A program made the translations under genes and the position numbers. A stretch of DNA of 64,000 nt, taken from the IMG/VR virus record IMGVR_UViG_3300027861_004723; one strand, given 5' to 3'. The stretch comes from an uncultured virus (IMG/VR IMGVR_UViG_3300027861_004723) (lineage: Duplodnaviria > Heunggongvirae > Uroviricota > Caudoviricetes). The notes under the pieces are model-generated. The model was given only the letters and a program-made list of their open reading frames with translations. It made no database searches and had not been told where the DNA came from. How positions within the stretch are numbered: position 1 is the stretch's first letter; each line of letters opens with the position of its first letter. Positions 3-45,096 of the stretch are shown piece after piece.

Positions 3-2555
3 GCCTATCGAAGTATCCGGAACATCAATACCTTCTAGTAAAGCCTCAACACTTAGCATGCATCTTACACGACCCTTATTACTTGAAAATGATTCCATCA
101 TCTTTCGTCTAAGCTGCGACGGCTGTTTAGAGTGGTAATTCCCAAAAGGGATCAAATACTCTTCATCTGTGTGGGAAGTAAAAGAGTAGTCATCACTCAT
201 AAAAGGATAAGCAATAAACTCCCCGGCCATCCAATCATTAAAGAGAAGGGTATAAAGTATATTCATCGGTCTTACGCGTTTATGGAAGCATATTACCTTT
301 TTGCCCTGAGATAACGCTTGTTTGATTAGGCAATAGGCACTAACTATGCGTGCTGGGTCCATCCAAGAATATTCTCTTTTAAGCGCTCTTTCCGCTAAGC
401 TGCTATCATTATCAATTTCATGAAATATTGTTGGTGCAGTATATAACCAAGTTAGATTAAAATGAGAAATTGTTTGCATTGCCAAAGCCCGAGGTAGGTC
501 ATATTTAGCAATAAGCGGGCCGCATTGCTCCTCTAGGATATCCCATCTCTTAGAAATCTCTTCTTTTTTTGATAAAGCATCATGATCATCCTCGTCTACG
601 TCATTAGTGTTTGGTAGTGTCGCAGAGACGCCCAAGGTGTATTTGTGGTGATAGGTTGAGGGCTTCCCCTTTAGGCACGGATAATCTCTAGAGTGATCCC
701 CTATCAGGACACCCAACACTCTCCTGCTAGACGCGGAAGTTGCACGATGGGCCTCATCCAAAATAAGGAAATTTTTAGCCACGCCCCGTTTTATGCTTAC
801 CCGGCATTCTAGCTCATCAATAGCGGATGCGTAGGTCATAATTGCAATACTGCCAGGAGCTAAAATAGTTTTAGGATTTCTCTTTATAGGTGTGATCCTG
901 CCAACTACTTTGCCTTCCGCCTCTGACCAGGAGGTTAGATCAGGATGATAGGATCTTATCTTGCTTTCTCCGAAAGTATATATCACTGAACGCGAGCCGA
1001 TATCCTCATCCCTTTTTAGGTTTTCCAACCACTGCCCCACTAGGGCATTAGTAGGAACCATAATGGTTACTGATATGCGCTTCTTCTCTTCGTAAAGAAG
1101 ATGCTTTATAGCACCAATGCATAACCTAGTCTTTCCCGCCCCTGTCACTGCCTCAACTAGACCTCTATATTTCGATCTAGTTGTAAGTTTTATCTTCCTA
1201 TTTTTCTTATTTCGAGCATAGGGAGTTATGCCCTTCCATCTATCTAGAACCCTAGCTTGCCATGCATACCGTAGCGAGCCGTCTTCTGCGTCCTCTACTT
1301 CTCTTTTCGTGAATAGGGAAAGTAAGCTACTTCTTGCTGAACCGGCAGGAGGCTCTACGGCGATTGGTATACCATCTGGCCCTCCTCGTATTATCTCAAT
1401 TTGATCAGGTTTAATACGAGAGCCTTTAGCTAGCTTCACCAATCCGAACCCACTAAGTAACTTAGCTCTATCCATCTTATAGCAACAATTTTTGAAAGGA
1501 ATTGACTTGTTGTCCGCATATCGAGAACCGCAGTCACAGATCAATACGCTGCCCCGCCCTACACCAGCACTAAGCAGGTCTTTTCTTCGTTCCGACCACT
1601 CAGATCTCTCCCTGGGCTTGTCCTTATTGCCTGATAGTGTCCAAGCATAGGCAAATCTCCTACGATTTTGCTGACTTTCATGGCTGAGACATTTATCTTC
1701 ATCCGTCAAACAATCCTGGCAGGCATCCTCTTCTGGGTAAGCCCAATAATCTGGTATAAATGGGATAGGATATCCTAAGCCGAGATCTGATTGTCTCTGG
1801 GGGCTTGCAAAATCCGATTCTGGGTGTGTTTCCCTTTTTTTATCTGCCCTGCAAGCCAACACCCTATCACACTTCTCTTTAGCTTTAGCCCTCTTGGCAC
1901 CTCTTCTAAGGGGCCTGTTTTTAAGAATACTAATACCATGGCAATCGCAGGAGTGTCTGCGCTTAATTTTCCTAAACTTGGCCTTCGGCTTAAATCGTCG
2001 TCCTCTACGAGACGAGGATCTATCCGACCTTTGCAGTGCTCCTGTTTTTTTCTTAATAGAAAATCCAAGAGATTGGGATTCCACCCAACTATCATCAATT
2101 GGATACCTCGGATCATAGGGTATGTGCTTAAACCCCCATTTGTTTTTAAGAATATTTCCAGGAACCCTACCTTCTACGGAGTCAGGCTCCTGCTCCCACT
2201 TACATATCCAGTCGCTATTTACCTTATTTATTATTCCTAATTGCACAGTTACTAGTTCGTAAAGATCATCAATAGATAGATTTTTAAAATACAAAGGAAG
2301 TCTGTCGTACCAGCTAGAAGGCTTAAAGGCAATAGATATAGGATCCAGATCAGCTACTACCTTTATATCTACTATATCACCATTTTTTTCGTATCGTGGA
2401 ATCCAACCAAATGCTTTAGCATTCATCAGTATTTGCTGAAGAAGATATGCTTTTCTAAGTTTGATGTCCTTAGATCTTTGTCTTCTAGCATCCGCTTCAA
2501 GCGGCCCATCCCCATAATCTGCAGGAAAGGGGATCGGATTATCATGATAGTACAT
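3..2555 (-). CDS. SF2 (DEAH-box, XPB/SSL2-like) helicase with long N-terminal extension; runs off the left edge of the window
   Basis: Absent from the ORF track (no stop in window). Manual translation from ATG 2555 (MYYHDNP...) is open to position 3 and contains AVTGAGKT (Walker A), ILDEAH (Walker B), GVSAT (motif III) and LEGIDVPD (motif V). Confidence 0.9.
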   Translation of the reverse strand, partial: MYYHDNPIPFPADYGDGPLEADARRQRSKDIKLRKAYLLQQILMNAKAFGWIPRYEKNGDIVDIKVVADLDPISIAFKPSSWYDRLPLYFKNLSIDDLYELVTVQLGIINKVNSDWICKWEQEPDSVEGRVPGNILKNKWGFKHIPYDPRYPIDDSWVESQSLGFSIKKKTGALQRSDRSSSRRGRRFKPKAKFRKIKRRHSCDCHGISILKNRPLRRGAKRAKAKEKCDRVLACRADKKRETHPESDFASPQRQSDLGLGYPIPFIPDYWAYPEEDACQDCLTDEDKCLSHESQQNRRRFAYAWTLSGNKDKPRERSEWSERRKDLLSAGVGRGSVLICDCGSRYADNKSIPFKNCCYKMDRAKLLSGFGLVKLAKGSRIKPDQIEIIRGGPDGIPIAVEPPAGSARSSLLSLFTKREVEDAEDGSLRYAWQARVLDRWKGITPYARNKKNRKIKLTTRSKYRGLVEAVTGAGKTRLCIGAIKHLLYEEKKRISVTIMVPTNALVGQWLENLKRDEDIGSRSVIYTFGESKIRSYHPDLTSWSEAEGKVVGRITPIKRNPKTILAPGSIAIMTYASAIDELECRVSIKRGVAKNFLILDEAHRATSASSRRVLGVLIGDHSRDYPCLKGKPSTYHHKYTLGVSATLPNTNDVDEDDHDALSKKEEISKRWDILEEQCGPLIAKYDLPRALAMQTISHFNLTWLYTAPTIFHEIDNDSSLAERALKREYSWMDPARIVSAYCLIKQALSQGKKVICFHKRVRPMNILYTLLFNDWMAGEFIAYPFMSDDYSFTSHTDEEYLIPFGNYHSKQPSQLRRKMMESFSSNKGRVRCMLSVEALLEGIDVPDTSIG

Positions 2556-2683
2556 AGAGGTATTATCTCATAAAATGCTGATGTTTGAAACAGCAATTTT
2601 GCCTGGCTTCGTCTGCACGACTTGATTTTTAGATCTTTCAATGTAAAATAGCTATTTCCGTTGAAATTAATATCGAGGTATAG

Positions 2684-8899: not shown

Positions 8900-10685
8900 A
8901 TGTCACTCTCAGAAGAAAATTTCCCAGCTAAATTTCTATCCCAATTCATGGAAGCCATGAAGCATGTCGATAAAATCGAAGACGCATCTACATGGAAAAA
9001 AGATAAATGGGATACGCCACCTCTTTGTAAGGTAAGGGATGATTACGAAGTTGATGAAAAGACGTTTAAAGATTTCGAAAAGATACTTTATTTTCTTACC
9101 CTAGCCGTTTTCGGAACAGGAAGTGAAGGCCGCTCTCGGGGCCGCTTCGTTGATTTCTACCTTAAAGACAAGACCAAAGATTACGCGGCTTTACCGATGT
9201 GGCGAATCACCAGACCTGATAAGGTTGAAAACAGCCTACGTAAACTGTTAAGAGCCCGAGATTTAGCTGATGGCAACGCTAAGATGGCACAGAGTGTTGT
9301 TGAAGACTTTGATCGATACATAAAGTATGCTCTAGACTGTGATTATGGCAACCTTCTCCCAGAAGTGGAAGAGTGCGTTCACTGCGGCTGGAAACGTGAC
9401 TCAGGCATATGACAGACGATAACGAATTTGGGGGCTTACAGTACAACTACTCTTGGAACTTCTTTCTACGTCGTATAGATGGTGTCGCTTTAAACCACCC
9501 TTCCTGGGAGGTATCTCCCACGATCAGAGGAAAAGTCTGGGATGCTATACAGCCATATGTACTGGTGGCCCCGAATAGATACTCGCGTAGACATGTTGTA
9601 AGAGACTTGATGACATCAGTTTTAAATGCTGTGATTTCAGAAGATAAGGAGTCCGCATGAGCGCTCTGTTTAAGATCTGGTCCAAACAACACGACCGCGC
9701 TGTTAGCATCTACGGGGTAAGGCAGACTAGATTCCTAGTTTGGACCACTAAGGGATGGTCGTGGGTTGACCACAGCAAGTTCATACCAATGACATCCTCA
9801 CCATACGAAGAATCCGTAGCCTACGAAGAAAGTGTTTTTTATACTGGGCAACGAGAAGAGTCATGAAAATGGGAACCGAGGAGTTCTACGAAGCCATTCG
9901 TGCTCTTCATACTCCACTATGGCCGTATAACAACCACCCAAAAGGATGTGGGCACGGTAAAGATGATCGACTAGTCACTACCAAAACTCGGATGCGCAAA
10001 GACCGAGTAGCTGTTATGACTTTGGTTTGTTGGAAGAATCGCTGGAAGGAAAGCGAAGATGAGATCCCACTTAATGAGCCTCTTCACAAGGCTCTTTTTG
10101 TCAGAACTACGGCGTTAACTGTTGAAAATGCAGTTTTGATTGGACAAACCCTGACTGATTATCTGGAAACCGGCAACGAGCCCACAGCTATCATGGATAT
10201 GCCCATGTATCCTGGGTATGAGGATATTGATAACCGGAAATTCAGATGAAACAACCATCGATCAGAATTCGTAGTATTAAAACCAGAGTTAGGAATCGTA
10301 TTTTTGGAAGAGGTCTTCCTTGGAACAAAGTCAGGAATAAAATTTTTGGCCCGGTCTATGATCAAATCCCTGAGATTTTTGAGAAGGTGCATCAAGCCTT
10401 GCTAGAAGAGTGGCCGCGTGATAAGATCAGAGATCAAAGATCAGCGCTAGGAAATGACCTGTGGGGGTCTGCGGAGCGTCATCTCTAGTGGCTCCTGCTC
10501 AGATCCGCCTCAACTACCTTTACGAAAGGGTTGACAGTACTTTTGAAGCTCTCTATCAAGAGCATTGGCACAGCCAAGCACATCTAGTCAACAAAATAGT
10601 TTGGGCCGTAATTACTCCTGTGTGGGACGACGTTTGTATTCCAATATTTAATTCAGTGACAGGCGACCCTCCCGACTCCGTATAA
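8900..10685 (+). CDS. Cluster of six short overlapping hypothetical genes (8900, 9409, 9657, 9863, 10246, about 10488)
   Basis: ATGA-type stop/start overlaps on the same strand; no recognisable motifs. Confidence 0.6.
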
Positions 10686-27999: not shown

Positions 28000-29142
28000 T
28001 CACAGAGCAGCTTCGACCTTGTGGGCCGCTACGCGGATTTTTTTGGTGGCTCCTGAGATTGATTGTCGAACTTGGCGCTCCAAGAAGTCAACCTGAGCAT
28101 CTGTGAGGTCTTTGAGCACGTTCATGTGGGCCATGTTTACTGCCTCATCTGCGCCGCTGTCAAGTTCATCTGCAGCCGCAAGGGCTGCATCTACTGTGTA
28201 GAATACCACCCGCGAGCGGTTGAGGATTATGAAGTCGCCGCCCTCATAATACTCGTTTTCTAGCCGGTCAATAGCAGTTTCACTCAGACTGACGCTGACA
28301 GCATCCCAGGATTCCATAGCCAGCCGCAGGGAGGCAAGGGTTTCATGGTCACCGGCTGCGGATGCAACCTTCCATGCTCGCTGTAGGACGCGTTCTGGGT
28401 TTCGTCTATAGTAACGCGATTCCCCTCCCGAGTGTGTTCCCAATTCCGCTAACTCTGCGACTAGTGCAGCGCGTCTCGCATCACCACCACCGCAGCACCA
28501 ATCACAGCCCGAATAGGTTCGATCCATCTCTTTGATCGCAGCCCGAATATCTGCGATGGCCTTCGCCCGTTGCTCATCCGTCTCCCTAGCCTTCGCTTTA
28601 GCCTTCCGGCGCTCTAGCTTCTTCTTTCGGCGTGATTTAGGGTTTTTTCGTCTACGGTAACGTGATCTAAGCTCCCAGCCTGGTCCAGAAAGCCCACGAT
28701 GTCTTCGTTGCTGCGCCTGCTTATTTTCTGCAAAGCCTCCCCATCCGCTTCCTGAGCGGGAACCGGAACTGAGTTTTTTCGCACCATCTTGTGGGCACTT
28801 TCCTCTACAGTAAGGAAACGCACTACATGCCCAGAATAAACCATACCTACCTGATTTTACTACGCATGGATTTTCGCACCCCGGGCACTCTGGGGCGTCA
28901 GAAGGCCCAGTAGCTTTTTTCCTCTTAGCAGCTTTCTTCTTTTTCTTGGGAGTTTTCTTTTTTAGGAGGCGAGACTTAACAGCCTTTTTCTTGGGGGCTT
29001 TCTTTCTAGCAACTTTTTTCTTAGGAGCTTTTTTAGCCGTCCCACGGCTAGAAGCGGACTTATGCCGTTTACAATACGTGCGAGCACAAGAAAGCCCGCA
29101 CTTTTTACCATCGGATTTCTTATAAGCTTTGCACTTGTTCAT
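28000..29142 (-). CDS. Basic, histone-H1-like protein with a topoisomerase-type C4 Zn ribbon and RxNP motifs
   Basis: KKAPKKK repeats; CPGC...KSGRYGLFWACSAFPYC. Confidence 0.75.
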   Translation of the reverse strand: MNKCKAYKKSDGKKCGLSCARTYCKRHKSASSRGTAKKAPKKKVARKKAPKKKAVKSRLLKKKTPKKKKKAAKRKKATGPSDAPECPGCENPCVVKSGRYGLFWACSAFPYCRGKCPQDGAKKLSSGSRSGSGWGGFAENKQAQQRRHRGLSGPGWELRSRYRRRKNPKSRRKKKLERRKAKAKARETDEQRAKAIADIRAAIKEMDRTYSGCDWCCGGGDARRAALVAELAELGTHSGGESRYYRRNPERVLQRAWKVASAAGDHETLASLRLAMESWDAVSVSLSETAIDRLENEYYEGGDFIILNRSRVVFYTVDAALAAADELDSGADEAVNMAHMNVLKDLTDAQVDFLERQVRQSISGATKKIRVAAHKVEAAL

Positions 29143-29735
29143 TATTTATCTTCCTTAACATAGATCAAATCACCCAGGATAGCCACGCCATCGCAAATAC
29201 TTTCTTCCATGCCATAACTAGTGTTTCCTTGCCAGTAGGATCGTGCCCAACTAGAAATTTCATCTTTAGCTCTTTCTCGGGCAGCAGTGTTAAGCCACCG
29301 ACTAGGTGCGCCACCATACATATTCCCCCCCAGGGCCCGCATGCAATCTTGTCTAGCTTCCGTCCACATTTCGGAATCGGTCGTAAAGATAGTTCCAGAA
29401 AATAGAACCTCATAAACATGAGTTCTCGCAGACCACTCACTGGGTTTACTGCAGAAGCCGCTATCAAGTTTAGGGCATAGGAATATGCAACCTATACGTG
29501 AAGGCGCTTCCGGGTTTGTTTTGATTCTTACCTCGTCAAAGACATCTTCTTGGAAGTTCCAAATCTTGTAGTGAACAAGCATCTCTGGATCAGCGTCAAT
29601 AGGCGGATCACTGCCCAGCCCTTTGAATTTGGGGACAAATTCTAAATCACAGGGGCCTTTAGCAGCCCAATACATAATTTGATCTTCGACGTGGTGGAAG
29701 CCAGGCTCTGTAACATCTGGGTTATATCTATACAT
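29142..29735 (-). CDS. DUF2441-like (putative ADP-ribosyltransferase fold) protein, starts MYRYNP
   Basis: FDEVR...P.APSRIGCIF, VYEV, YW.G, E; start coupled by a TAATG overlap. Confidence 0.55.
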   Translation of the reverse strand: MYRYNPDVTEPGFHHVEDQIMYWAAKGPCDLEFVPKFKGLGSDPPIDADPEMLVHYKIWNFQEDVFDEVRIKTNPEAPSRIGCIFLCPKLDSGFCSKPSEWSARTHVYEVLFSGTIFTTDSEMWTEARQDCMRALGGNMYGGAPSRWLNTAARERAKDEISSWARSYWQGNTSYGMEESICDGVAILGDLIYVKEDK

Positions 29736-32167: not shown

Positions 32168-34621
32168 CTAGCGCCGCCTTCTTCTCAATTTACGTTTGCT
32201 GCGTTTTCTAGTATAAGCGCAAGGCAAGTGTTCTTCCTGGTTACAGCACCACTGTTTGTTGCAAACAGGGCAGACGGCTCGGGCGTAGCAGCCTTTACAT
32301 AGTTTCTTTTTATTATGGTCGCACAGTTTCGTGCAGTCCTCGCAGAAAGGCTTTTTACAGTCATCGCATTTTTCGTGCGTATTAGTATCACACTCTACTT
32401 CTTCCTTGCCTGTTTTATTATTGACAACATACTCTTCTATCTCTGTGTTGGAACATTGCTCCGGCTCGCAATTCTCGCAGTGTCTGCAATCCCAGCCATC
32501 ATACGGGCAATCACAATCCTCGCAGCCTGTTACGCAGCTTTCACAGTAATCTCCATCACAATGTTCACAAGTCGTGCTGCAAGCAGGGCAGGTGCTCCCG
32601 CAGCTATCGCACCCGTTACTAGCTTCGCAGCTATCACAATAATCAGTACCACAGGTAGGACAACTATTAGTACACTCGGAACAGACACTGCCGTAACAGT
32701 TATTTTGCACCCCGCACTCACGAAGGTGGTCCCCGCACACAGCATTTTCGCAGGATTCGCATCTATACTGGCAATCTTCGCAAACTTCCACGTCACAGCA
32801 CTCTAGGGTGACTAGATCACTTGGGCCGTAGTCAGAGCCACAGCCAGCACATTCCGTAAGATGCTCATTACATACATAGTCGGCATTGTAGGACGAGCCA
32901 ACGTCCGTTGCACATTCATCACAATAATAAGCCGGTTCTGAATCTTTTACTGCAGGACCAACGCCTCTGGCTTCACATTCCCGGCACGTATGAGCATGAT
33001 CTTCACATACAAGACCGCAACAATCACCGCCCACGCACTTAAAGAATTTCTTGCATAGAGGACATCCGTGATCTTCTGGGTCGTCACTTTCCCCACAGTC
33101 GTAGCACCACATGTTTCTTATTCCAACCATGTTGTCCATTAGTTGTTGGTCGCCCTCATAATGACCGTGCGGTGGGCCATTACATAGCAGCAGATCAAAT
33201 CTATCCAGCGCCATAGATACCCTAGAAGGATCCGGTATAGTAGCTTCACTTTCTTTCTGCCCACAGGTATCACAATAATCTTCTCCATGGAGGTAAAGAT
33301 GCTGACCAGCGGGGCAGGGATCTGGCCCATACCCAGGAAGGGATCCTCCGAGAGGCGACCAGGTAGCTCCTTCTTCCCGCGCCCGACGCGCCAATACCTC
33401 CTCGCGGTCTATAGCCGAATCCATAGCCATCTGAAGTAGCTTAATGAGATCACCATACTCTTCCGTACTTATAGGATGAACACCACAATCATTGGTATCC
33501 ATAAATTGCATAGATTGGCAGTGAATTAGGCCATACTTCTTTTGGTCTCTCAGGATAAGATAGAGTGGGCCTTCCCTAAGATATGCCGCTGCAGTACCTT
33601 CATTACAAACACACCAGTTAGTCATATTAGCAGCCTTGCTAGCGGCTTTAGCATTGGTAATGCGTATAATCTGGTATTCTGTGCCGTTGATCAAATCACG
33701 AAAGATGGATTGCACACCCTCTTTTTGCAATTCCATCACACTTTTAGTCTCTGGTAGCCATTTCTTGACGAACATGAATAATTGCTGCGTGCTATTAAAG
33801 TTCTTTATTTGCCTATACTCTACGGGCAGTCTACGTTTAATACGATGATAGGTAGAGAGTAGCTCTCGGGTTTTTTCTGAATCCTCTGGCAATTTTATCT
33901 TGTTGTTTATTACAAGATTCATAATCCATTCACAATAACTACCTGATTTGCTAGGATCCGCTTCCCCTATTATAGCCATCTGTCTACGGATATCTGCTTC
34001 ACGTTTTGCTACATTGACCTGGATTGGTGATCCTACTTTTTTGGTTAGCTTGTTTTGGAACCGGTCCATGAGGTATTGGCGACGTTTATCACTAATGGGA
34101 TTGCGGTATCTCCTATCAAACTCCCCCAACTCGGCGCTCTCTCTTTGTGGATTAGGGAAAACCGCTCTAATGTCTAGAACTTTGCGTCTATCTTTTTTAC
34201 GTGGAGACGTATCAACAATAACCTCTCCATCGTAATCTAGTAATAATGCGTGCCCTTGAACTCGTATCATATAACGAGTCCCTTTAGGATCACCCCAAGA
34301 ATTTTCCGAGGCATGGCGGCCTAGCTCATGTGTGAGCCATTTAATTATATATTTTGCCCTGGCAACTGTCTTTACCCCCGGCTTATAGCCTATATTTCTG
34401 TAACCTCTTTTAAGATGTGAATTACGAGAACGTGCGGCCCATCCATTCTTACGAAGAATAGCAAGACGCTGTTTCAGCTGCCCGCTATAGTGATAAGAAC
34501 ATGAATTTATGCCGAAAGCAGCTAATACCGCACTAGTACAGACGGTTTTAGAGCCTCCTCTAAATCGGAGGTGTTCTGGCACTCCACGAGCATTGGGGTC
34601 TTCTCTAGGATTAGGTTGCAT
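32168..34621 (-). CDS. 817-aa protein: conserved phage domain plus long CxxC-repeat region
   Basis: ADPS..G.Y..WI, LPED.EK, TNWCV, YL.EGPLY; more than 30 CxxC-like pairs; TGATAAAAT 6 nt before ATG. Confidence 0.85.
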   Translation of the reverse strand: MQPNPREDPNARGVPEHLRFRGGSKTVCTSAVLAAFGINSCSYHYSGQLKQRLAILRKNGWAARSRNSHLKRGYRNIGYKPGVKTVARAKYIIKWLTHELGRHASENSWGDPKGTRYMIRVQGHALLLDYDGEVIVDTSPRKKDRRKVLDIRAVFPNPQRESAELGEFDRRYRNPISDKRRQYLMDRFQNKLTKKVGSPIQVNVAKREADIRRQMAIIGEADPSKSGSYCEWIMNLVINNKIKLPEDSEKTRELLSTYHRIKRRLPVEYRQIKNFNSTQQLFMFVKKWLPETKSVMELQKEGVQSIFRDLINGTEYQIIRITNAKAASKAANMTNWCVCNEGTAAAYLREGPLYLILRDQKKYGLIHCQSMQFMDTNDCGVHPISTEEYGDLIKLLQMAMDSAIDREEVLARRAREEGATWSPLGGSLPGYGPDPCPAGQHLYLHGEDYCDTCGQKESEATIPDPSRVSMALDRFDLLLCNGPPHGHYEGDQQLMDNMVGIRNMWCYDCGESDDPEDHGCPLCKKFFKCVGGDCCGLVCEDHAHTCRECEARGVGPAVKDSEPAYYCDECATDVGSSYNADYVCNEHLTECAGCGSDYGPSDLVTLECCDVEVCEDCQYRCESCENAVCGDHLRECGVQNNCYGSVCSECTNSCPTCGTDYCDSCEASNGCDSCGSTCPACSTTCEHCDGDYCESCVTGCEDCDCPYDGWDCRHCENCEPEQCSNTEIEEYVVNNKTGKEEVECDTNTHEKCDDCKKPFCEDCTKLCDHNKKKLCKGCYARAVCPVCNKQWCCNQEEHLPCAYTRKRSKRKLRRRRR

Positions 34622-35197: not shown

Positions 35198-37465
35198 ATG
35201 CCCTTACGTCGCTATAACCCCATCAGTGATTCCAGACTACCAAATATTCGTAGCTACATAATAAAATGGATGGTAGGCTACTATAATGAATTGGGTGCCA
35301 CGCGGAGAGCCGCACAGGATATTATCAAACCCTACCAAGACCTCATACACAAAGAGACAATCGGGCTATTTAAAATCAGAGTCTATTCTGAGCCCAAAGA
35401 ATTTAAGTCGTGGATGGAGCCAGGCTATGATCCTGGCCACAGATATGTAATTTTTGCACCAGCAGAAATCAATGAATACAACGATGAATACGCACGCTAT
35501 CCGCGTGTATTGGGCGGCGACCCAGGATCCTTTGTATCTGCGGAGAACAAGGTAAGCCCTACTGATGATAGAGATATACAACATACTCTTCTATTACTAA
35601 GAAGATCTTTTGAAGATGTAACCACCCATATTGAAAGTTCAGCGGATCACTTGCTGAGGCAACTTAAAGATGCTGATCCTACACACACGGGAGAATATGC
35701 ACGTTGGATAGCTAAACAAGTAATAGAAGAAAATCTACGGTTTCCAGAAGATATCGAAAAGGTTAATGATGATTTAACTGGTTTTCATGGTATCAAGGCT
35801 CGCAAAGTGCTGCCCAAAGAACATCGTGATATAAATAAGTTTGCTACATACGGAGAGTTTTTTGAAATTCTAAAGCAGTTTGGCGGGGTTCTTAGCGACC
35901 GGGAAAAAGTAGCCCGAGCTATGGAAAGTGGTAATACCATTTACGAATCTGAAACTTATCGGGTTATAGAAGTCAAAAAGTGGCAGCTAGCCAAACACCT
36001 TGCCCAAGGAACCGGTTGGTGTGTTCGTGGCACAGATATGGCCCAGCACTACCTGCAAGAACCGGAAAAGTATCCGTTATACTTCTTTTTTAGAGATGGT
36101 GAGCAATACGGCCTATTATCAAGTCGTCCAGACGAGCCACAATTTAAAGATGTAAACGATGTTGAGTTTACTAAAGAGGCTATTGAAGAAGATTCGGAAC
36201 TTGTAAGCATCTTACCCAAGATTTGTGATTGGATTGTCTGCGTTGGTTGTGGGACTGTTTATGCTGAAAAATTCGATTTAGATCGCTTTAGTGATGAACT
36301 ATCCGAATTGACTGGAACTAATTTTCAATCCGATAGGCCCATTCCAGTAAAAGACACTGGGGTTACTTTCGGGGTTGGCAGTTACCTGGTATTCCAGTCT
36401 CCCCCAGCCATAAGCAACTATCCTGTTATCACAACGGAAACAATGCTTAATGATAAGGTAATGCTTGGACCCGCCCGAGGAGTTTTAAAACAAATTGCTG
36501 ATGTAAAGTTTCCTGCTATTGATAAGTTTTTTGAGAAAGCTGGAATCTCTAACTCCGCTGATATTGTAAGGGATATTACGAAACGGGTTGTAGAGCCTTT
36601 GCTTTGTTCTTGTGGGGGCCTTGATAGACCTATCGATGCAGGGGAGGTTAGAGATGAAATTCTCCATGCTTTGTTTGTTATTCAGCCCTGCGAAGATTTT
36701 GGCGTTATGTCAGGCTACGTCGTATGCGGGCATGACTTATCGCCCAAATATCGAGGGCCTGCCTGCCCCGCTAGACTCATGGATTGGGGTCCTTTTGTTG
36801 GTATGCGCTGCGTCTGCGGAGTTTTCGTACCTTACGGATCAAGATTTTCCATATGCCCAGCTTGTTTACGAGATGATGAACCCACAGAATATTACACAGG
36901 ACGCCCGCTCGATGAAGATGAACAAGACGATCTTAACTGGACAGGTGATTATCCCAAAGACGGATGTCCTCTTGAGGAACTATCTCAGATATTATCCTCT
37001 ACTTTACCTAAATGGAGGCACGCAGCAACATTTAAGTGGGATTTTTCATATGACCCCAAGTTAAGAACGGGGCATAGTAGAGAGGCTAAGCCGAAATGGC
37101 ACTCCCAGAAACCTCCTTCCCTGGCAGAGAAACTTAACCTAAGAAAATCGATTGACATGTATGGGTACGCGGTGTGGAATATCCGTCCTCTTCCTAGGTG
37201 GCATGAATTTGCGCAGGTATACGTTGCGCTATACCAGTTTCCCGAGTTCCGTGACTTGCCAGAAGTCTACTTCAGCCCAGAATTCGGGGAATTTCTTTCT
37301 GAATACAGGGATCTTTTCGAAGCAGTCAATGAACAGCAGTATTTTGATAAGGAAGCCTTCATGTATCTACTAGATGCATTTGAGAATATATCCAGCGTAG
37401 TAAAGAAGATAATCAAAACTGACTCCCACGCACACAATTATTGTTGTGAGGCCCTTGATCCATAA
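35198..37465 (+). CDS. 755-aa RRYNP-tagged paralogue of the conserved domain in 32168 and 29735
   Basis: ADPT.TG.Y..WI, FPED.EK, TGWCV; TGCTATAAT 5 nt before ATG. Confidence 0.85.
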   Translation: MPLRRYNPISDSRLPNIRSYIIKWMVGYYNELGATRRAAQDIIKPYQDLIHKETIGLFKIRVYSEPKEFKSWMEPGYDPGHRYVIFAPAEINEYNDEYARYPRVLGGDPGSFVSAENKVSPTDDRDIQHTLLLLRRSFEDVTTHIESSADHLLRQLKDADPTHTGEYARWIAKQVIEENLRFPEDIEKVNDDLTGFHGIKARKVLPKEHRDINKFATYGEFFEILKQFGGVLSDREKVARAMESGNTIYESETYRVIEVKKWQLAKHLAQGTGWCVRGTDMAQHYLQEPEKYPLYFFFRDGEQYGLLSSRPDEPQFKDVNDVEFTKEAIEEDSELVSILPKICDWIVCVGCGTVYAEKFDLDRFSDELSELTGTNFQSDRPIPVKDTGVTFGVGSYLVFQSPPAISNYPVITTETMLNDKVMLGPARGVLKQIADVKFPAIDKFFEKAGISNSADIVRDITKRVVEPLLCSCGGLDRPIDAGEVRDEILHALFVIQPCEDFGVMSGYVVCGHDLSPKYRGPACPARLMDWGPFVGMRCVCGVFVPYGSRFSICPACLRDDEPTEYYTGRPLDEDEQDDLNWTGDYPKDGCPLEELSQILSSTLPKWRHAATFKWDFSYDPKLRTGHSREAKPKWHSQKPPSLAEKLNLRKSIDMYGYAVWNIRPLPRWHEFAQVYVALYQFPEFRDLPEVYFSPEFGEFLSEYRDLFEAVNEQQYFDKEAFMYLLDAFENISSVVKKIIKTDSHAHNYCCEALDP

Positions 37466-38140: not shown

Positions 38141-39820
38141 ATGCGATACAGAAGAAATGCTGATTCACGTCTTAGAAAACTAGAACGTCGGCTACATAGC
38201 GGTGATTTGACCGCAGCTATGCCACTTACCCATGAATTGCAAAGAACAATGGGGGCGGGTCCGGATTTTGTTGATGCCTTGCTGAGAAATGATCTCTTAC
38301 CTAGGATACCCGAACAGCCCTATCAAAGTACTGGGCAGTTGCCTGCCTTCTTTGAGCACATCGACCCACAGTATTGGTATCCATATACAGCGCTAATTAG
38401 CGAATTAGTAAGTCGAGGTATTCCTTTTGGTCTCAGGCCAAATGGTGCAACCTGCGGCTGTGAGCACAGTAATTGCCAACACCCAGTAAGAAATGATTAC
38501 TGCTATGATTGCAACATTGCTGGTACAATGGTTCCTCTAGAAGAGTTTTATGACTTAGATAAGACGCATGTTTTTGATTGCGCTTGTGGGCGTCGGTTTA
38601 CAGGAACTCCTGATTATAAGAAGCATGCCCAGGATTGCGGGGGGGATCCAGAGGTTGTTGGAACGCTCAGAGAGGTAGCAGCAAATGCTCAAGACGAGGG
38701 GTGGAGTAGATACGATATTATTTGCACTAAATGTAAAGACATAAGAGGATACTATACCCCAGGAGATGGCCCTTGCGGCGAGCTACCTTGGCGAGGCTAC
38801 AATAATGACCTAGGTGGTATTTGTGATTTCTGCTTCGCTGGCTATCCACAAGTTTGGCACAGCAATATATGTCAATGTCTTGAGTGCAGCGAAGGTATTG
38901 GCCCTCTTATCCTTCTTAGAACTCGTATGATGCCTCCCAGAGATCTAGAATCTATGCTTGATGATTACGAAACTTTTTACGGTGATGGCCGTAAAGTAGA
39001 CGTTGCTTTCAGTATTGATAGAGATTCAGAATATGCAGAAAACTGGTGGACGGAATATGGTTATGATAATGATAATGGCCATCGTAAGCTAGACACTTTA
39101 TCTCTGCATTGCATAGAAATACGACCTAATGGCGGATACAGATTACGAGAATATAGTCATCTTAATGAAAAGATGATACTGCCTAGATTCAGAGAAATTT
39201 TAGATCATAGATTGGCCCAGCCAGGCCCTCCCGGCGCTAAAGAACTTTTTAGGTGTCATATGCTAGGCAGAGACTTTTCTCTACCCGAACTAATAGACCA
39301 TCTTGCAGTTCATAATACACCTAATATGCCGCAGTTTATACAGCAGGTTTATGATGTTGTTAAAGAAGAAATCTCTTTCGACGCCATTTTCCAGCTAGAC
39401 CGAATAGACCCGACTTTGAGAGAATTTGAATGTCTTGGCTACTGGTCTCCCCCAGCACCAGACTTCTATATCGAAGGCTTTTTGACATCACAAAGAACAC
39501 TAGCCGGGTTCAGTGAACTGCCCTTGCGAGTAGTATTTTCTAGGCATTCCCAGACAGATACAGTAACCTTTTACCTTCTAGGAGACAGATTCGGTGATAC
39601 TAGACAAGAATTTAATCGCCCATACAGTGATCACTCAGAATCTAAAAAACCTACTCTAGAAAATATTACCAAGCGATTGGGGTGGGCATTAGATCGTGCT
39701 CAACGATCTCCTATGGAGGGCCATATACAACCAGGTCGGTTGGAAATGTTAATTAATAATTTCTGTCCGCACGGCTATCAATCAGAAGAGTGTAAGAAAT
39801 GCGGGACACAGCATGGATAG
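38141..39820 (+). CDS. 559-aa Cys-rich protein starting MRYRRNADSRLRKLERR
   Basis: TGCTACAAT 6 nt before ATG. Confidence 0.8.
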   Translation: MRYRRNADSRLRKLERRLHSGDLTAAMPLTHELQRTMGAGPDFVDALLRNDLLPRIPEQPYQSTGQLPAFFEHIDPQYWYPYTALISELVSRGIPFGLRPNGATCGCEHSNCQHPVRNDYCYDCNIAGTMVPLEEFYDLDKTHVFDCACGRRFTGTPDYKKHAQDCGGDPEVVGTLREVAANAQDEGWSRYDIICTKCKDIRGYYTPGDGPCGELPWRGYNNDLGGICDFCFAGYPQVWHSNICQCLECSEGIGPLILLRTRMMPPRDLESMLDDYETFYGDGRKVDVAFSIDRDSEYAENWWTEYGYDNDNGHRKLDTLSLHCIEIRPNGGYRLREYSHLNEKMILPRFREILDHRLAQPGPPGAKELFRCHMLGRDFSLPELIDHLAVHNTPNMPQFIQQVYDVVKEEISFDAIFQLDRIDPTLREFECLGYWSPPAPDFYIEGFLTSQRTLAGFSELPLRVVFSRHSQTDTVTFYLLGDRFGDTRQEFNRPYSDHSESKKPTLENITKRLGWALDRAQRSPMEGHIQPGRLEMLINNFCPHGYQSEECKKCGTQHG

Positions 39821-40716: not shown

Positions 40717-40778
40717 ATCTCTATTATACAAAAGGAGGGTGTTGTTGCTTATCTAATTTGCCCTGATAATATGGGAGT

Positions 40779-42179: not shown

Positions 42180-43250
42180 TTGGTAGTGAAGTTGAGGATG
42201 AAGCCGAGGATCGTGACAACAAGTAAGCCACAACAAGCCCAACTCAACCTTAACCGCCTCTACCAAGAATGCGACGACGCGCTCTCTTACGACATCTACT
42301 GTAAGGCTAATTGGTTTTTTGGCACGTATCCGGCCCCTAGCAGAGAAAAAAATCCTATTCAGTGGTTAGTGGGAATGTATTTAATGCAACAACTATATGT
42401 GGATGATCATAAGGGGTTAAATACATGAGTAAACTACAGCAATCCGATGTTTATTTCCACCAAGTTCGGGATAAGATGCTTCGGCCCGTGTGCCCGCCTG
42501 CTGATTCTCCTGGCCCACAGGGAGCATCATTTCATGTTTGGGCCCAAGTTATGGACCAAGTTCGGGCTCCGGTTTGGTTTCAAGTTCAAGTTTATTATCG
42601 AGTGCGGAATCAAATTTGGGAGGATAGTGAAGGGCACCCTCTTTCACAGCCAGCAAATCCGTGGGTGATATGAAGCAACAGCACCATCGGATTCAGAACA
42701 AAGTCTTGTCCCCGACTCAAATTATTGGTGATTACGTTCAGGTTCTGATTCGCGCCCGCGTCCAGGTCGAAGTTATTGATCAAGTTGATAGTCTGGTTTT
42801 GCCTATTCGAGCCCAGGTTGCAGACCAAAGTCAGTATGACAATACCAGATAGGCTACAGCAACAGAAAGTTTTTTGTCTACTACAACCGAAAGTCTGGCG
42901 TCAAGTTATAGGCCAAGTAGAAAAAGTTCCTTGGAACCGTATACACGAGATAGTAGTCCAACTTGAGGACACCCTCTTTCACAGCCAGCAAATCCGTAAT
43001 CAGGTTTGGATTGATTATCAAAATGAATGATATAGAACAAAGCATTCGCGCCACAGTTTATAGCCAAGTTTCGCAACTTACTGGCGACTACGCTATCCCT
43101 CAGCAAGTTGAGGCCCGAGTTTTTGTTCCAGTTAGGGACCAAGTTTATTTTCAAGTTGGCGACAAACTAGAGTGGAGCCTGCGTGGCAGGTGTGAAGTGG
43201 AACAGTATAAAGGCGCTGTTGCGATGTATTTGGCTATCTTTTTAATATAA
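42180..43250 (+). CDS. Tandem short QV-rich genes
   Basis: Repeated QV..QV..QIW patterns; 28-bp direct repeat at 42635 and 42970. Confidence 0.55.
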
Positions 43251-44425
43251 GTGACAAACCCGGGATCAGAAACATCAATTAAATCCATAGATAGCAAGGT
43301 TTCTACACTTGGCATAAATTCCTTTTTTACATTTTGCCCATCGCTCTGCTTACGGCCCGGTATATAGGTAGGAGCAGCAGGATCGCGGAATCTTTCATTT
43401 AACCAGCGAGCACTGATTACCGTGCGAGTTGCCAAAAGATGGTCGATTGGATAAATTTGATATGCGTCAGGAATACAACTTTCATACTGTACTTTAGCTT
43501 GGATTTTAATGTTCTTCTTTCGAGCATGAAGGAATTTTAGTTCTTTGCACCGCTCGCCTTTACACTTCGGATCATAGTTGGCTTTTGTTTTCCCACAACG
43601 GCAAGCATAATCGTGATCTCCGTCGAGATTTTTGTACTCGGCAATTTGCTTGTTTATTTCTCTGATAACCCGTTTTTTTGTAGCGGCTTCAATAGGCACA
43701 ATATTTTTTTTGGGAATATCTATAGTATTAGTATCACAGTAATCATACTTGTCAATTAGGTTCCTATCACCCTGAACTTCCCACCAGGTATCAGCACTAT
43801 CTGACCTGAAACCTTCTACGGAATAAATACAGGGGTCGTAGTCAAAAGAATCCTCGATTTGTCCTGTCAAATTTGAATATCCCATATCCTTTAGGGGTTC
43901 TGACCCAGTTACGGTTACCCACTCATCATGCCCGTGTTGCATGGCAACAGCTAAAACCATTCCACTGTAGAGGACGAACCCCAGGCCCTGTCCTGGCACT
44001 ATAACCCCAGAAGGAGTGTGGGATCGGAGACATTTTTGGTAGTTTTTTGGTTTAGCTTTTGGATCAGCTTTTCGAGCGGCGGCCTCGTTTGCTAAACGCC
44101 GTTGCACAAGGTCCTTGTGGAATGCCTCTCTTATTTTACTTTGTCCCTGCCAATTCCCGCCATCCGGGTTTCTCCTAAACTCGCGTGGCTTCCCTCGAAT
44201 ACCTATTTCTGCATCAAAATAACCGGACCCAACAGTAGACAAGTGGTTTACTGAATAATTTTTGCCGGGTTTGCTGAGAGTATGGATTATTACTTCTGAT
44301 ACATCCATACCCCCTTCTTCCTCTCCCGGTAGAGCCACGGATACTCCATACGGTTTTAAGGTTTTAGGATTGAGAATTATACCAACGGGCACAAGGTCAT
44401 GATTGTAATAAGCAAATTCTTCCAT
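43151..44425 (-). CDS. 424-aa hypothetical protein with internal FRRNP
   Basis: Long ORF directly downstream of the 44431 gene. Confidence 0.75.
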   Translation of the reverse strand: MEEFAYYNHDLVPVGIILNPKTLKPYGVSVALPGEEEGGMDVSEVIIHTLSKPGKNYSVNHLSTVGSGYFDAEIGIRGKPREFRRNPDGGNWQGQSKIREAFHKDLVQRRLANEAAARKADPKAKPKNYQKCLRSHTPSGVIVPGQGLGFVLYSGMVLAVAMQHGHDEWVTVTGSEPLKDMGYSNLTGQIEDSFDYDPCIYSVEGFRSDSADTWWEVQGDRNLIDKYDYCDTNTIDIPKKNIVPIEAATKKRVIREINKQIAEYKNLDGDHDYACRCGKTKANYDPKCKGERCKELKFLHARKKNIKIQAKVQYESCIPDAYQIYPIDHLLATRTVISARWLNERFRDPAAPTYIPGRKQSDGQNVKKEFMPSVETLLSMDLIDVSDPGFVTYIKKIAKYIATAPLYCSTSHLPRRLHSSLSPT

Positions 44426-44430
44426 TTGTT

Positions 44431-45096
44431 TTAGGCAGGATATCCCTGAGCATCAAAACAATCCTCAATCACCCTTAGCATACACTTTTGTAGGTTTTCC
44501 CAGTGTCGCGCACCGTGCGCTTCAAACCTTGGGTCGCCTGGGTGGTCAAGAGCACCCGTCAGCCGCACGCCGAGCCCGCCGACAGCGACGTGAGTGTCCT
44601 CGTGAGAGCCCTTATCCTTCATCCACCAGTAAGAGAATTCATCAGGAATCTCTTTTCCACGGGAGTCTAGGGTCAGGCCTGTTAGCACGCCCGCATGAAG
44701 AGTAATGGCTCCTAATAGCCTTACAGCCTCAATCCTTAACTCTGGGTATAGATGGAAATCATCTCCAGAAATCATATGGTCTAGTCTATCACACATCATA
44801 TTAAACACGTCCGTTTGCACACGCAACGTTTCTAGTCTTCCGTGAGCGAAGATTAAATTCCCGTCAATATCTCGGTCCTGATTTGGTCCTCTTTCGTGAT
44901 GACCTCTTGCAATCGGATCTCGCAGAACATGACGTTCTGTCCGAAGGTCTACAGCCCATTTGCGCTCGTCGTCGAGGGGCAGGTCTCCGTGATCCACCCG
45001 GTCGAGTGGCTTAGACTTTTTCTTTACCTTTTTCTTTGCGTTTCGGCGGTAATAGTGTTGTGGTTCATCTTCGGGATTTCTTCTTCTTCTATACAT
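44431..45096 (-). CDS. Protein starting MYRRRRNPEDEPQHYYRRNA
   Basis: TGCTATACT promoter and GGAG RBS before ATG 45096. Confidence 0.8.
   Translation of the reverse strand: MYRRRRNPEDEPQHYYRRNAKKKVKKKSKPLDRVDHGDLPLDDERKWAVDLRTERHVLRDPIARGHHERGPNQDRDIDGNLIFAHGRLETLRVQTDVFNMMCDRLDHMISGDDFHLYPELRIEAVRLLGAITLHAGVLTGLTLDSRGKEIPDEFSYWWMKDKGSHEDTHVAVGGLGVRLTGALDHPGDPRFEAHGARHWENLQKCMLRVIEDCFDAQGYPA

What the first reader, a model, noticed from the sequence alone, without database searches (positions are those of the whole stretch)
3..45096. A shared [Y/R]-R-x-N-P tag on about 12 unrelated proteins: candidate capsid-sorting or polyprotein-processing system
Seen: proteins with otherwise unrelated domains begin with MYYHDNP (helicase), MRRRRNP (SprT), MYYRNP (27570), MYRYNP (29735), MTRYRSNP (32167), MPLRRYNP (35198), MRYRRNA (38141) and MYRRRRNP..YYRRNA (45096). 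The motif also recurs internally at domain borders. In the 810-aa ORF the order is YRSNP|Nudix|YLTNP|NADAR|YRYNPWARNP|conserved domain. RYRNP|ISDKR in the 817-aa ORF mirrors RRYNP|ISDSR at the start of its paralogue. It separates modules of the SprT protein and forms the extreme C-terminus of the 26106 protein. Most tagged genes belong to the leaderless promoter class. Known analogies: the T4 internal-protein capsid targeting sequence removed by gp21, prohead-protease processing of phiKZ/SPN3US ejection proteins, and Asn-Pro autocleavage in FlhB/YscU. Inference: the tag marks proteins packaged into the head and cut into separate effectors (Nudix, NADAR, ART-like, protease, helicase) for delivery with the DNA. 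I know of no description of this motif.
Basis: partly seen in the sequence, partly recalled or inferred. Interest (0 to 1): 0.9.

Follow-up and report, generated by a model that had tools for sequence, protein, structure and literature searches.

The report
Portable Asn-Pro tag on phage proteins
About a dozen otherwise different proteins of an uncultured marine phage begin, or are joined together, with the same tiny peptide (a few arginines or tyrosines followed by asparagine-proline), which looks like a portable label for a shared fate such as loading into the virus particle, although what reads the label is still unknown.

Summary
All eight N-terminal strings are at the stated starts, and a ninth was found (22198, MLKTRYNP). 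[RY][RY]NP lies in the first 12 residues of 6 of 81 ORF products left of 47 kb, against 0.02 expected (0 of 2000 shuffles). Internal copies number 8 against 0.3 expected. Codons vary, so selection acts on the peptide.

The tag was added in this lineage at the N-terminal edge of modules. Of 116 NADAR homologues, only the closest carries it, at the same border. All 3 relatives of the 755-aa protein start M[WM]RNPISD. In relatives of the 266-aa protein, 21 of 24 copies of one helix module follow a tag: 6 N-terminal and 15 at internal joints.

AlphaFold puts the tags in coil outside the domains.

Packaging is supported only indirectly. One tagged domain resembles a mass-spectrometry-confirmed virion protein of phage PA5oct. 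The 810-aa protein has a polyvalent-protein architecture. Cleavage is not shown, and the FlhB NPTH analogy fails.

Best reading (0.4): a portable address or junction tag for virion cargo.

The scan has noted analogous tags with other sequences in other uncultured phages, but not this motif or this DNA.

The parts
2535..2552 (-). YYHDNP, residues 2-7 of the helicase (gene 3..2555, runs off the window; 973 aa in P0124). This is the weakest variant of the tag.
22210..22221 (+). RYNP in MLKTRYNP, start of the 68-aa ORF 22198..22404.
23048..23065 (+). RRRRNP, residues 2-7 of the protein 23045..24517, which has two CCHC knuckles and a SprT-like domain.
24053..24304 (+). Three internal copies in the SprT-like protein (RRRNP 24053-24067, RRNP 24191-24202, RRNP 24293-24304). 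They bracket two short repeated modules (...DDPGH.GDVIEEHD).
25453..25473 (-). RRRRRNP as the last seven residues of the basic 218-aa protein (25450..26106). The same protein also has RNP at 26020-26028 and GRKNP at 25750-25764.
27553..27567 (-). YYRNP, residues 2-6 of the 266-aa protein (26770..27570). The AlphaFold helix starts at Pro6.
28396..28416 (-). RYYRRNP inside the 380-aa Lys-rich protein with a Top1-type zinc ribbon (28000..29142), directly before a copy of the helix module. A second copy, YRRRKNP, lies at 28639-28659.
29718..29732 (-). YRYNP, residues 2-6 of the 197-aa protein (29142..29735). Its ATG overlaps the stop codon of the 810-aa gene.
32144..32161 (-). RYRSNP, residues 3-8 of the 810-aa protein (29735..32167), directly before the Nudix domain.
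31655..31669 (-). YLTNP between the Nudix and NADAR domains of the 810-aa protein. The NADAR fold starts at the next residue (ITSF...).
31181..31219 (-). ATG at 31219 preceded by TGCTATAAT N6, then MPNYRYNPWARNP. This is a double tag before the third module of the 810-aa protein, and a possible internal start or a relic of a fused gene.
34097..34114 (-). RRYRNP inside the 817-aa protein (32168..34621), at the border between a 170-residue N-terminal extension and the family's conserved start ISDKR.
35207..35221 (+). RRYNP, residues 4-8 of the 755-aa protein (35198..37465).
38144..38161 (+). RYRRNA, residues 2-7 of the 559-aa protein (38141..39820). This is the N-A variant, before the helix module.
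44165..44176 (-). RRNP inside the 424-aa protein (43151..44425), residues 84-87.
45037..45093 (-). YRRRRNP (45073-45093, residues 2-8) and YYRRNA (45037-45054) of the 221-aa protein (44431..45096).

Best explanation
The window is part of a large uncultured marine phage. A subset of its proteins, clustered at 22-45 kb plus the helicase, carries a 4-7-residue short linear motif: two to five Arg/Tyr (sometimes Lys), then an invariant Asn-Pro (rarely Asn-Ala). The motif sits in unstructured sequence immediately in front of a folded module. It comes mostly right after the initiator Met, also at joints between modules, and once at a C-terminus.

I read it as a portable address tag that each module brings with it and that a single common partner recognises. 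The most likely fate is incorporation of these proteins into the head as internal or ejected cargo, as with the T4 capsid targeting sequence. The proteins include anti-defence-type enzymes, a protease, a helicase and very basic DNA-binding proteins.

Internal copies would then be tags kept after gene fusions. They may also mark where a protease, possibly the tagged SprT-like enzyme, separates the modules.

Shown: the motif, its enrichment, its position at module borders, its selection at the peptide level, its lineage-specific addition and its conservation in relatives.

Inferred: that a partner reads it, that the partner is part of the prohead, and any cleavage.
For: 1. Enrichment and order-specificity. 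6 of 81 N-termini carry [RY][RY]NP against 0.02 expected. [RY][RYK]NP occurs 16 times against 0.88 under local shuffles.

2. Selection on the peptide. Arg is encoded by AGA, AGG, CGA, CGT, CGC and CGG; Asn by AAT and AAC; Pro by all four codons.

3. Added to unrelated folds at their exact N-terminal edge.
- Stand-alone Nudix relatives P0013-15 start at the residue that follows the tag here.
- 115 of 116 NADAR homologues have no [RYK]NP in the 22 residues before the FLSNF landmark; most of them start M-I-x-S-F, where the window has YLTNP|ITSF.
- The exception is the closest relative, P0004 (63% identity), with ...GPMRRNP|ITDF at the same border.

4. Kept in relatives.
- 3 of 3 homologues of the 755-aa protein start MWRNPISD or MMRNPISD, with N and P invariant.
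- In 20 of the 23 relatives of the 266-aa protein, 21 of 24 helix-module copies are preceded by the tag (18 NP, 1 NA, 2 NPG). Six are N-terminal and 15 are at internal joints.
- Other modules in the same proteins also start after RNP.

5. Separable from the fold. Three relatives and the window's own 39813 protein start the helix module with no tag. AlphaFold leaves residues 1-5 of the 266-aa protein, and the segments 155-167 and 315-331 of the 810-aa protein, as coil or low-confidence linker.

6. Module-wise behaviour. P0128 differs from P0126 by a module of about 60 residues inserted exactly at ...RGNP|, and the insert brings a second ...TKNP|.

7. Link to virions. The domain shared by three tagged proteins matches 11 PA5oct-type jumbo-phage records (E 2e-8 to 5e-6). 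The PA5oct copy is annotated as a structural protein found by ESI-MS/MS.

8. Kind of proteins. Nudix+NADAR+further modules in one 810-aa chain, a SprT-like metallopeptidase, a helicase, and Lys/Arg-rich zinc-ribbon proteins. This matches the published picture of diverse defence-countering internal proteins united only by a targeting sequence in T-even phages (PMC3012670, passages), and of packaged, processed polyvalent proteins (PMC5512222, passages).
Against: - No capsid, portal, scaffold, terminase or prohead-protease gene was recognised in the 64 kb. Pfam was run on 76 proteins and PHROGs on 37. There is therefore no head-gene neighbourhood and no candidate receptor.
- The PA5oct homologue is distant (22-26% identity over 17-33% of the query) and has no tag.
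- A helicase and a SprT-like protease are not typical head cargo.
- Several tagged genes sit behind sigma-70-like extended -10 boxes. In many phages such boxes mark early genes, not late virion genes. Timing is unknown here.
- A single targeting tag would suffice for a multi-module protein. Yet up to four copies are kept, and 15 of 21 tags in relatives are internal, which a pure N-terminal address does not explain.
- The tag has nothing in common with the T4 CTS sequence.
- No expression or proteome data exist.
Confidence: 0.4

Rival explanations
1. Processing site only. The motif marks where a phage protease cuts multi-module (polyvalent) proteins into separate effectors, with no role in targeting. 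The candidate protease is the SprT-like zinc peptidase at 23045, which itself carries four copies.
For: - Copies lie exactly at module joints in unstructured linkers.
- 15 of 21 tags before the helix module in relatives are internal.
- A metallopeptidase sits in the same gene cluster.
- The polyvalent-protein model predicts processing by zincin-like peptidases (PMC5512222, passages).
Against: - The most frequent position is residues 2-8, where a cut would only remove a 5-8-residue leader.
- One copy is the very C-terminus, with nothing to release.
- Nothing after N-P is conserved.
- Whether the SprT-like domain belongs to the MPTase group of that paper was not tested; 'SprT' occurs 0 times in its text.
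Confidence: 0.15
2. Docking motif for another common partner: nucleic acid (an AT-hook-like arm), a host hub protein, or the gate of a phage-made compartment. The tagged proteins would be brought to the DNA or replication site rather than into the capsid.
For: - Many tagged proteins act on or bind DNA: helicase, SprT-like protein with CCHC knuckles, Top1-type zinc ribbon, NADAR.
- Four copies sit in strongly basic runs: RRRRNPPKRRK, YRRRKNPKSRRKKK, GRKNPSKKKKK, YYRRNAKKKVKKK.
- Position-independence (N-terminal, internal, C-terminal) is typical of a short binding motif.
Against: - Seven of the 24 tags are followed at once by an acidic residue (NPDE, NPED, NPEF, NPDV, NADS, NPER, NPDG).
- The invariant pair is Asn-Pro, not the Arg-Gly-Arg-Pro core of an AT-hook (core recalled, not from a call).
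- The RNA ligase and the CCA-adding enzyme, which also act on nucleic acid, are untagged.
- No compartment-shell gene was seen in the window.
Confidence: 0.2
3. No dedicated reader. The motif is a junction convention spread by module shuffling: a basic linker plus an Asn-Pro helix or strand cap. It persists because it is harmless at module edges.
For: - In the 266-aa protein the helix starts at Pro6, so N-P can act as a cap.
- Six of the window's tags are inherited within two module families.
- A module insertion lies exactly at an NP joint.
Against: - The tag precedes beta-strand starts as well (Nudix, NADAR).
- It is kept with varied codons on at least ten unrelated contexts.
- It is absent from 115 of 116 NADAR homologues, so the fold does not need it.
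- The Arg/Tyr run has no capping role, and a linker makes little sense directly after Met1.
Confidence: 0.15
4. Translation-level or self-scission element. The X-Asn|Pro step stalls or breaks the chain, so one ORF gives several products. The break could be a ribosomal pause or skip at the Pro codon as in 2A peptides, or Asn cyclisation as in reovirus mu1 and FlhB.
For: - Asn-Pro is invariant, with a required Arg just upstream.
- Two relatives have ...YRDNPGP and ...YRDNPGS.
- The motif sits at every module joint.
- The comparisons to 2A, SecM-type arrest and mu1 are recalled, not from calls.
Against: - 0 of 24 window tags have N-P-G-P or N-P-T-H.
- At residues 2-8 the nascent chain is too short to act in the exit tunnel.
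- Known Asn-Pro autocleavages need a folded context, whereas the tags are in coil.
- 2A activity is known only on eukaryotic ribosomes (recalled).
Confidence: 0.05

Closest known systems
Capsid targeting sequence (CTS) of phage T4 internal proteins IPI-III and Alt
   Same: A short N-terminal peptide is the only thing shared by a diverse, fast-changing set of phage proteins, several of them counter-defence enzymes (PMC3012670, passages).
   Different: - There is no sequence likeness. The T4 CTS ends in a Glu-type site for the gp21 protease (recalled); this tag ends in Asn-Pro.
- This tag also occurs at internal joints and at a C-terminus, often in several copies.
- Packaging and removal are shown for T4 and not here.
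Polyvalent proteins of phages and conjugative elements (Iyer, Burroughs, Anand, de Souza, Aravind 2017, PMC5512222)
   Same: - Several disparate effector-type domains lie in one chain of a phage (Nudix+NADAR+two more modules in the 810-aa protein).
- A zinc metallopeptidase is in the same set.
- The paper predicts delivery with the DNA and proteolytic release of the domains (passages).
   Different: - In the passages I read, that work describes domains, not a conserved peptide at the joints.
- Here the same peptide also heads single-module proteins.
- Neither NADAR nor SprT appears in the paper's text ('nadar' 0 occurrences, 'sprt' 0).
Prohead-protease propeptides of giant phages (SPN3US gp245, phiKZ, 201phi2-1)
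   Same: N-terminal segments of head and ejection proteins are defined by a short recurring protease motif, sometimes in several copies per protein (PMC10052503, passages).
   Different: - Those propeptides are 20-254 residues long, and 13 of 14 sites are N-terminal removals. Here the tag is 4-7 residues long.
- Their motif ends in Glu (recalled), not in Asn-Pro.
- No protease of that kind was seen in the window.
Cargo-loading peptides of encapsulins (recalled, no call)
   Same: A short terminal peptide docks unrelated cargo enzymes to the inside of an HK97-fold shell. It works at either terminus.
   Different: The sequence is different, encapsulins are cellular compartments rather than virions, and no shell protein is known here.
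Asn-Pro autocleavage sites (FlhB/YscU NPTH; reovirus mu1 Asn42-Pro43) and 2A NPGP peptides (recalled, no call)
   Same: An invariant Asn-Pro pair lies at a place where one chain could become two.
   Different: Those sites need a folded domain or a longer conserved upstream peptide plus Gly-Pro. Here only N-P is shared, in coil, with an Arg/Tyr run instead.

Membership tests
T4-type capsid targeting sequence | Short N-terminal peptide shared by otherwise unrelated proteins of one phage | tested here: met
   Nine N-terminal cases on at least seven unrelated proteins. Enrichment: 6 of 81 against 0.02 expected.
T4-type capsid targeting sequence | Peptide ends in the prohead-protease site (Leu/Ile-x-Glu in T4; recalled) | tested here: not met
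   All tags end in N-P or N-A, and none has Glu at the last position.
T4-type capsid targeting sequence | Tagged proteins are inside the capsid, and the tag suffices to load a foreign protein | not testable with these tools
   The only indirect link is a distant PA5oct homologue of one tagged domain that is a virion protein by MS.
Polyvalent proteins (PMC5512222) | Two or more disparate effector-type domains in one polypeptide of a phage or conjugative element | tested here: met
   810-aa protein: NUDIX 15-147, NADAR 176-309, the GTxWC domain shared with the 755 and 817-aa proteins, and a Cys-rich tail.
Polyvalent proteins (PMC5512222) | Zincin-like metallopeptidase (HExxH) in the same chain or system | tested here: inconclusive
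   A SprT-like domain (PF10263, E 4.5e-11) lies in a separate tagged gene at 23045. Its relation to the paper's MPTase group was not tested.
Polyvalent proteins (PMC5512222) | Delivered with the DNA and processed into units | not testable with these tools
   This is a prediction in the paper itself. No data bear on it here.
FlhB/YscU-type NPTH autocleavage | N-P-T-H in a loop of a conserved folded domain | tested here: not met
   0 of 24 tags are followed by T-H. The tags lie in coil or low-pLDDT linkers before unrelated folds.
2A ribosome-skipping peptide | D-(V/I)-E-x-N-P-G-P at the end of a peptide of about 18 residues; eukaryotic ribosome (recalled) | tested here: not met
   0 of 24 window tags have N-P-G-P. 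The genome has phage-type 4-base gene overlaps and -10 boxes. Two relatives have NPGP or NPGS.
Twin-arginine (Tat) signal peptide | R-R motif followed by a hydrophobic stretch and a signal-peptidase site (recalled) | tested here: not met
   The residues after the tags are polar or acidic (DERLRRLE, EDEPQH, PKRRKCG). No hydrophobic segment follows.
AT-hook | R-G-R-P core flanked by basic residues (recalled) | tested here: not met
   The core here is [RY]-N-P, and no tag contains G-R-P. Seven of the 24 tags are followed by an acidic residue.

The most novel reading that the evidence does not exclude
The [Arg/Tyr]n-Asn-Pro element is a self-contained 'cut here' signal that works in a bacterium. 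The chain would be broken at Asn-Pro, either by Asn cyclisation or by ribosomal skipping at the Pro codon (a prokaryotic counterpart of viral 2A peptides). One phage ORF would then yield several effectors, and every product, including those of single-module genes, would start with Pro instead of formyl-Met.
Probability: 0.06. Interest if true: 0.95.

Novelty: new variant of a known kind. Interest (0 to 1): 0.66.

Why it matters
Outside T4 and a few giant phages, little is known about how phages choose which proteins travel inside the particle, or how multi-domain 'polyvalent' effectors are handled.

A 4-7-residue tag that each module carries with it through gene fusions and splits would give a readable code for a phage's cargo or effector set. 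It would let such proteins be listed directly from metagenomes: tagged modules here include NADAR, Nudix, a SprT-like protease and many unknown folds. It would also offer a very small handle for loading foreign proteins into capsids.

The tag would be unusual among phage address signals because it marks module joints as well as N-termini. Even if the reader of the tag turns out not to be the capsid, a peptide this short, under this much selection, on this many folds, points to an undescribed recognition step in a widespread marine phage.

Tried and rejected
Genome and context searches that gave nothing useful:
- Megablast of 26-46 kb against 50,697 phage records: no match.
- Viral-contig searches with the 755-aa protein, the 266-aa protein, alignments A1 and A2, and a back-translated RRNPDxxLRxLER pattern gave no relatives. 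The one hit was an unrelated locus, L004: 58% GC, weak match, no tags.
- Metagenome contigs with A1 gave two loci with only distant, untagged GTxWC-domain proteins.
- The tool that finds encoding contigs is closed and was not called.
- Genome contigs with A2 and with P0129 gave only weak Cys-rich matches.

Protein and fold searches that gave nothing useful:
- A search with the helicase N-terminal 440 residues found only the protein itself.
- tblastn of the 559, 197 and 221-aa proteins against phages: no match.
- Foldseek of the 266-aa model against PDB and BFVD: nothing at E <= 0.001.
- PDB profile search with A1: only a 45-residue repeat-like match.
- Atlas look-ups gave only unnamed viral clusters, a weak PcfJ lead for the GTxWC domain and weak fibre-like leads for the 24510/45182 paralogues.

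Population and expression data:
- Laying contigs of 4 runs on 25.4-45.4 kb listed no variant. The phage is near-clonal in those runs, so no population test of selection on the tag was possible.
- No RNA holder was listed.

Explanations rejected:
- A DNA-level explanation (conserved promoter, leader or recombination site encoding the peptide) is rejected. Only AAYCC is constant, and the upstream sequences share just the -10 box.
- A link to leaderless translation is rejected as the cause. The class TGnTAnAnT N5-6 ATG includes untagged genes (45800, 34621, 26106, 8795, 6893). Tagged genes 32167 and 29735 are coupled to upstream stop codons, and 45096 has an 18-base leader.

Not attempted: complex prediction was not used because no candidate receptor is known.

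Literature: four searches found no description of the motif. They covered capsid targeting sequence; Asn-Pro autocleavage with capsid and phage; 'RRNP' with phage; and jumbo-phage propeptide or targeting motifs. I saw listings and abstract openings only. The library lacks most subscription journals.

Full report
**What the DNA is**

The window has tightly packed genes with 4-base start/stop overlaps, for example 9409..9660, 9657..9866 and 9863..10249. It has no tRNA. Its enzyme set is Asn synthase, a CCA-adding/HD enzyme, an RNA ligase, DUF6745, LRAT, DUF4279, a SprT-like domain, Nudix and NADAR.

The RNA ligase matches 380 phage records by tblastn, the best at 40% identity to Ralstonia jumbo phage RsoM2USA. 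Nothing in 50,697 phage records is close at the DNA level.

The same DNA is held by runs labelled seawater or marine metagenome. Sixteen runs were listed, 10 with at least half of the sampled words, from 10 studies, and 3 flagged as possible sources. In four runs laid on it, most contigs are 99+% identical (41 of 48, 54 of 65, 47 of 59, 43 of 51), with no variant listed.

I take it to be part of a large uncultured marine phage. No capsid, portal, terminase or protease gene was recognised among 76 proteins scanned with Pfam or 37 scanned with PHROGs.

**The observation**

- Thirteen proteins carry 26 N-P/N-A sites with Arg or Tyr in the three residues before; two N-A sites in the 817-aa protein look like chance, leaving 24.
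- [RY][RY]NP lies in the first 12 residues of 6 of 81 ORF products left of 47.2 kb, against 0.02 expected. None of 2000 shuffles reaches this. Internal copies: 8 against 0.3.
I met it by shuffling within 12-residue blocks: [RY][RYK]NP occurs 16 times against a mean of 0.88 (largest 4 of 1000).
- Arg precedes 15 of 53 NP dipeptides, against 3.6 expected.
- Of 22 six-frame regex matches, 18 are in the frames of the called genes.
- None of 35 ORF products right of 47.2 kb has the tag.
- The codons differ from copy to copy, and only AAYCC is constant. Selection therefore acts on the peptide.

**Anatomy**

The consensus is two to five Arg/Tyr (Lys allowed at -1), then an invariant Asn, then Pro (Ala in two cases). 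Nothing is conserved after it: the next residue can be D, E, I, P, K, S, Q, F, N, W or L.

In the 810-aa protein the copies sit at residues 3-8, 167-171 and 320-329, around Pfam NUDIX 15-147 and NADAR 176-309.

An AlphaFold model built on 50 sequences gives a confident NADAR fold from about residue 171 to 315. The segment 155-167 has low confidence and 315-331 is coil. The Nudix part is poorly modelled because only three relatives were in the alignment.

In the 266-aa protein, residues 1-5 are coil and helix 1 starts at Pro6. The tag is therefore an unstructured prefix of a module.

**The tag is an addition, not part of the folds**

- Stand-alone Nudix relatives (P0013-15) begin M-I-Y-W-G-S-A-G-A-G-I-L-F, where the window has MTRYRSNP-EFYGKAGAGILF.
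- Of 116 homologues with the NADAR landmark FLSNF, 115 have no [RYK]NP in the 22 residues before it; most begin M-I-x-S-F. The exception is the closest relative (P0004, 63% identity), which has ...GPMRRNP|ITDF at the same border, inside a longer protein.
- Conversely, the helix module that follows the tag in the 266, 559 and 380-aa proteins also exists without any tag. Examples are the window's own 39813 protein (MDRRLRELQRR) and three relatives that start M-A-D or M-S-D.

**The tag in other genomes**

All 3 homologues of the 755-aa protein (36-38% identity, from other contigs) start MWRNPISD or MMRNPISD. N7 and P8 are invariant in the alignment with the two window paralogues.

An exhaustive HMMER search with the 266-aa protein found 23 relatives. 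My regex found 24 copies of the helix module in 20 of them.

- 21 copies are preceded by the tag: 18 by N-P, 1 by N-A and 2 by N-P-G.
- 6 of the tagged copies are near the N-terminus and 15 are at internal joints.
- 3 copies are untagged.
- P0128, P0145 and P0146 were not matched by the regex. P0145 does have ...RYNPDSEL.
- Other modules in those proteins also start after the motif: MRNPVP..., SRRNPISHG..., MGKRNPDD..., DYRRNPGH....

P0128 differs from P0126 by a module of about 60 residues inserted exactly at ...RGNP|. The insert carries its own ...TKNP|.

The motif therefore marks the N-terminal border of shuffling modules in a set of related, so far uncultured, genomes. Their genomic contexts could not be fetched.

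**Relation to promoters**

A box TGnTAnAnT lies 5-6 bases before the ATG, which implies leaderless mRNA. It occurs at three tagged starts (35198, 38141, 27570) and at the in-frame ATG 31219 inside the 810-aa ORF, which is followed by MPNYRYNP. It also occurs at the untagged 45800, 34621, 26106, 8795 and 6893.

- Starts 2555 and 23045 have weaker boxes.
- Start 45096 has an 18-base leader.
- Starts 32167 and 29735 abut upstream stop codons.
- Gene 45182 has a GAGGA Shine-Dalgarno sequence.

Tag and promoter class are therefore separable. The box inside the 810-aa ORF suggests that its third module was, or still is, also made on its own.

**What it most likely does**

The features to explain are these: an invariant dipeptide after a basic/aromatic run, unstructured, on many folds, mostly terminal but tolerated at joints and at a C-terminus, optional, lineage-specific, and limited to a subset of genes. 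That is the signature of a short linear motif read by one partner.

I think the partner is most likely part of the prohead, for these reasons.

- The tagged set looks like phage cargo. It includes counter-defence-type enzymes (NADAR, Nudix), very basic DNA-binding proteins (the 380 and 218-aa proteins) and multi-module chains.
- In T-even phages a diverse set of internal defence proteins shares only a capsid targeting sequence (PMC3012670, passages).
- Phage polyvalent proteins are predicted to be packaged and cut by zinc peptidases (PMC5512222, passages).
- The domain common to three tagged proteins resembles a PA5oct protein annotated as a structural protein found by MS. The match covers 11 records, all PA5oct-type phages, at 22-26% identity.

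This support is indirect, and I put the reading at 0.4. Cleavage at the tag is possible. A SprT-like peptidase carrying four tags is in the cluster. But the commonest position (residues 2-8) and the C-terminal copy argue that cutting is not the primary role.

**Rivals**

- Processing site only: 0.15.
- Docking to DNA, a host hub or a compartment: 0.2. Many tagged proteins act on DNA and four tags lie in basic runs, but seven are followed by an acidic residue.
- Junction convention without a reader: 0.15.
- Translational or self-scission element: 0.05.

**Comparison with what is known**

The tag works like a T4 CTS or an encapsulin cargo peptide, and the proteins look like polyvalent proteins. 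It is not a member of the T4 CTS family, because the protease-site feature is not met. It is not an NPTH or 2A site, a Tat signal or an AT-hook (see the membership rows).

Four literature searches found no description of it (listings only).

Notes from this scan describe analogous tags with other sequences in other uncultured phages and in archaeal viruses. One of them also lies at polyprotein joints. They are unchecked leads and concern other DNA. Searches of those notes by sequence found nothing like these proteins.

**Verdict**

The feature is real, strongly non-random and undescribed. Its role as a virion address is plausible but unproven.

Noticed in passing
window 10431, 17823, 34642, 38099, 41000, 46541, 49640, 54862, 54941, 62355, 63596: A 17-base element, AGATCAAAGATCAGCGC, often preceded by a further AGATCAG, occurs 11 times at up to 2 mismatches (0.01 expected). 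It lies on both sides of the GC shift. Three copies lie 5-18 bases upstream of the -10 boxes of 34621, 38141 and 40966, so it looks like an operator or upstream promoter element. It holds two to three GATC sites.
   Followed up: partly
window about 47000-48000: G+C jumps from 43-48% to 52-60% and stays high to the end. No tag, Pfam or PHROG hit occurs to the right. The shared 17-base element argues that both parts belong to one genome rather than to an assembly chimera.
   Followed up: partly
window 24510-25103 and 45182-45775: Two paralogous 197-aa proteins (MANLVPSGIDITTGQ / MAQINPTGIDLTTGQ) flank the tagged gene cluster. The Atlas gives only unnamed viral clusters, with weak fibre-like leads (Gly_rich_2 by structure; Mtd_N and Phage_fiber_2 at 0.79). 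They may be small receptor-binding or fibre proteins.
   Followed up: partly
window 26770-27300, 29735-30400, 32168-33300: The 266, 810 and 817-aa proteins end in long Cys-rich CxxC tails. The tail of the 266-aa protein (CPQCAPKCDVC...HCWDFC) is conserved in relatives P0126, P0128-P0130 and P0139.
   Followed up: no
window 23072-23200: The SprT-like protein has two CX2CX4HX4C (retroviral-type CCHC) zinc knuckles right after its tag. This is an unusual partner for a SprT domain in a phage.
   Followed up: no
window 35198-37465; L001 3890-5338: The domain ADPTxxGxYxxW...RDIN.F...GTxWC (residues about 148-300 of the 755-aa protein) has no Pfam family. It is shared with PA5oct EST35_0205 (a virion protein), with a DUF4116-repeat protein in L002 and with a bacterial protein in L003. 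The Atlas gives a weak PcfJ lead.
   Followed up: partly
relatives P0126-P0148 (not in the window): The core of the 266-aa family has invariant His and Trp residues (SHDGWWGxxH, plus H100 and H115 in window numbering). This suggests a metal site. No fold match was found in PDB or BFVD.
   Followed up: partly
P0129: One relative with an internal tag lies on a contig of 859 kb (JGI; also Logan/ENA). The tag system may therefore also occur in a very large genome, cellular or viral. The contig could not be fetched.
   Followed up: no
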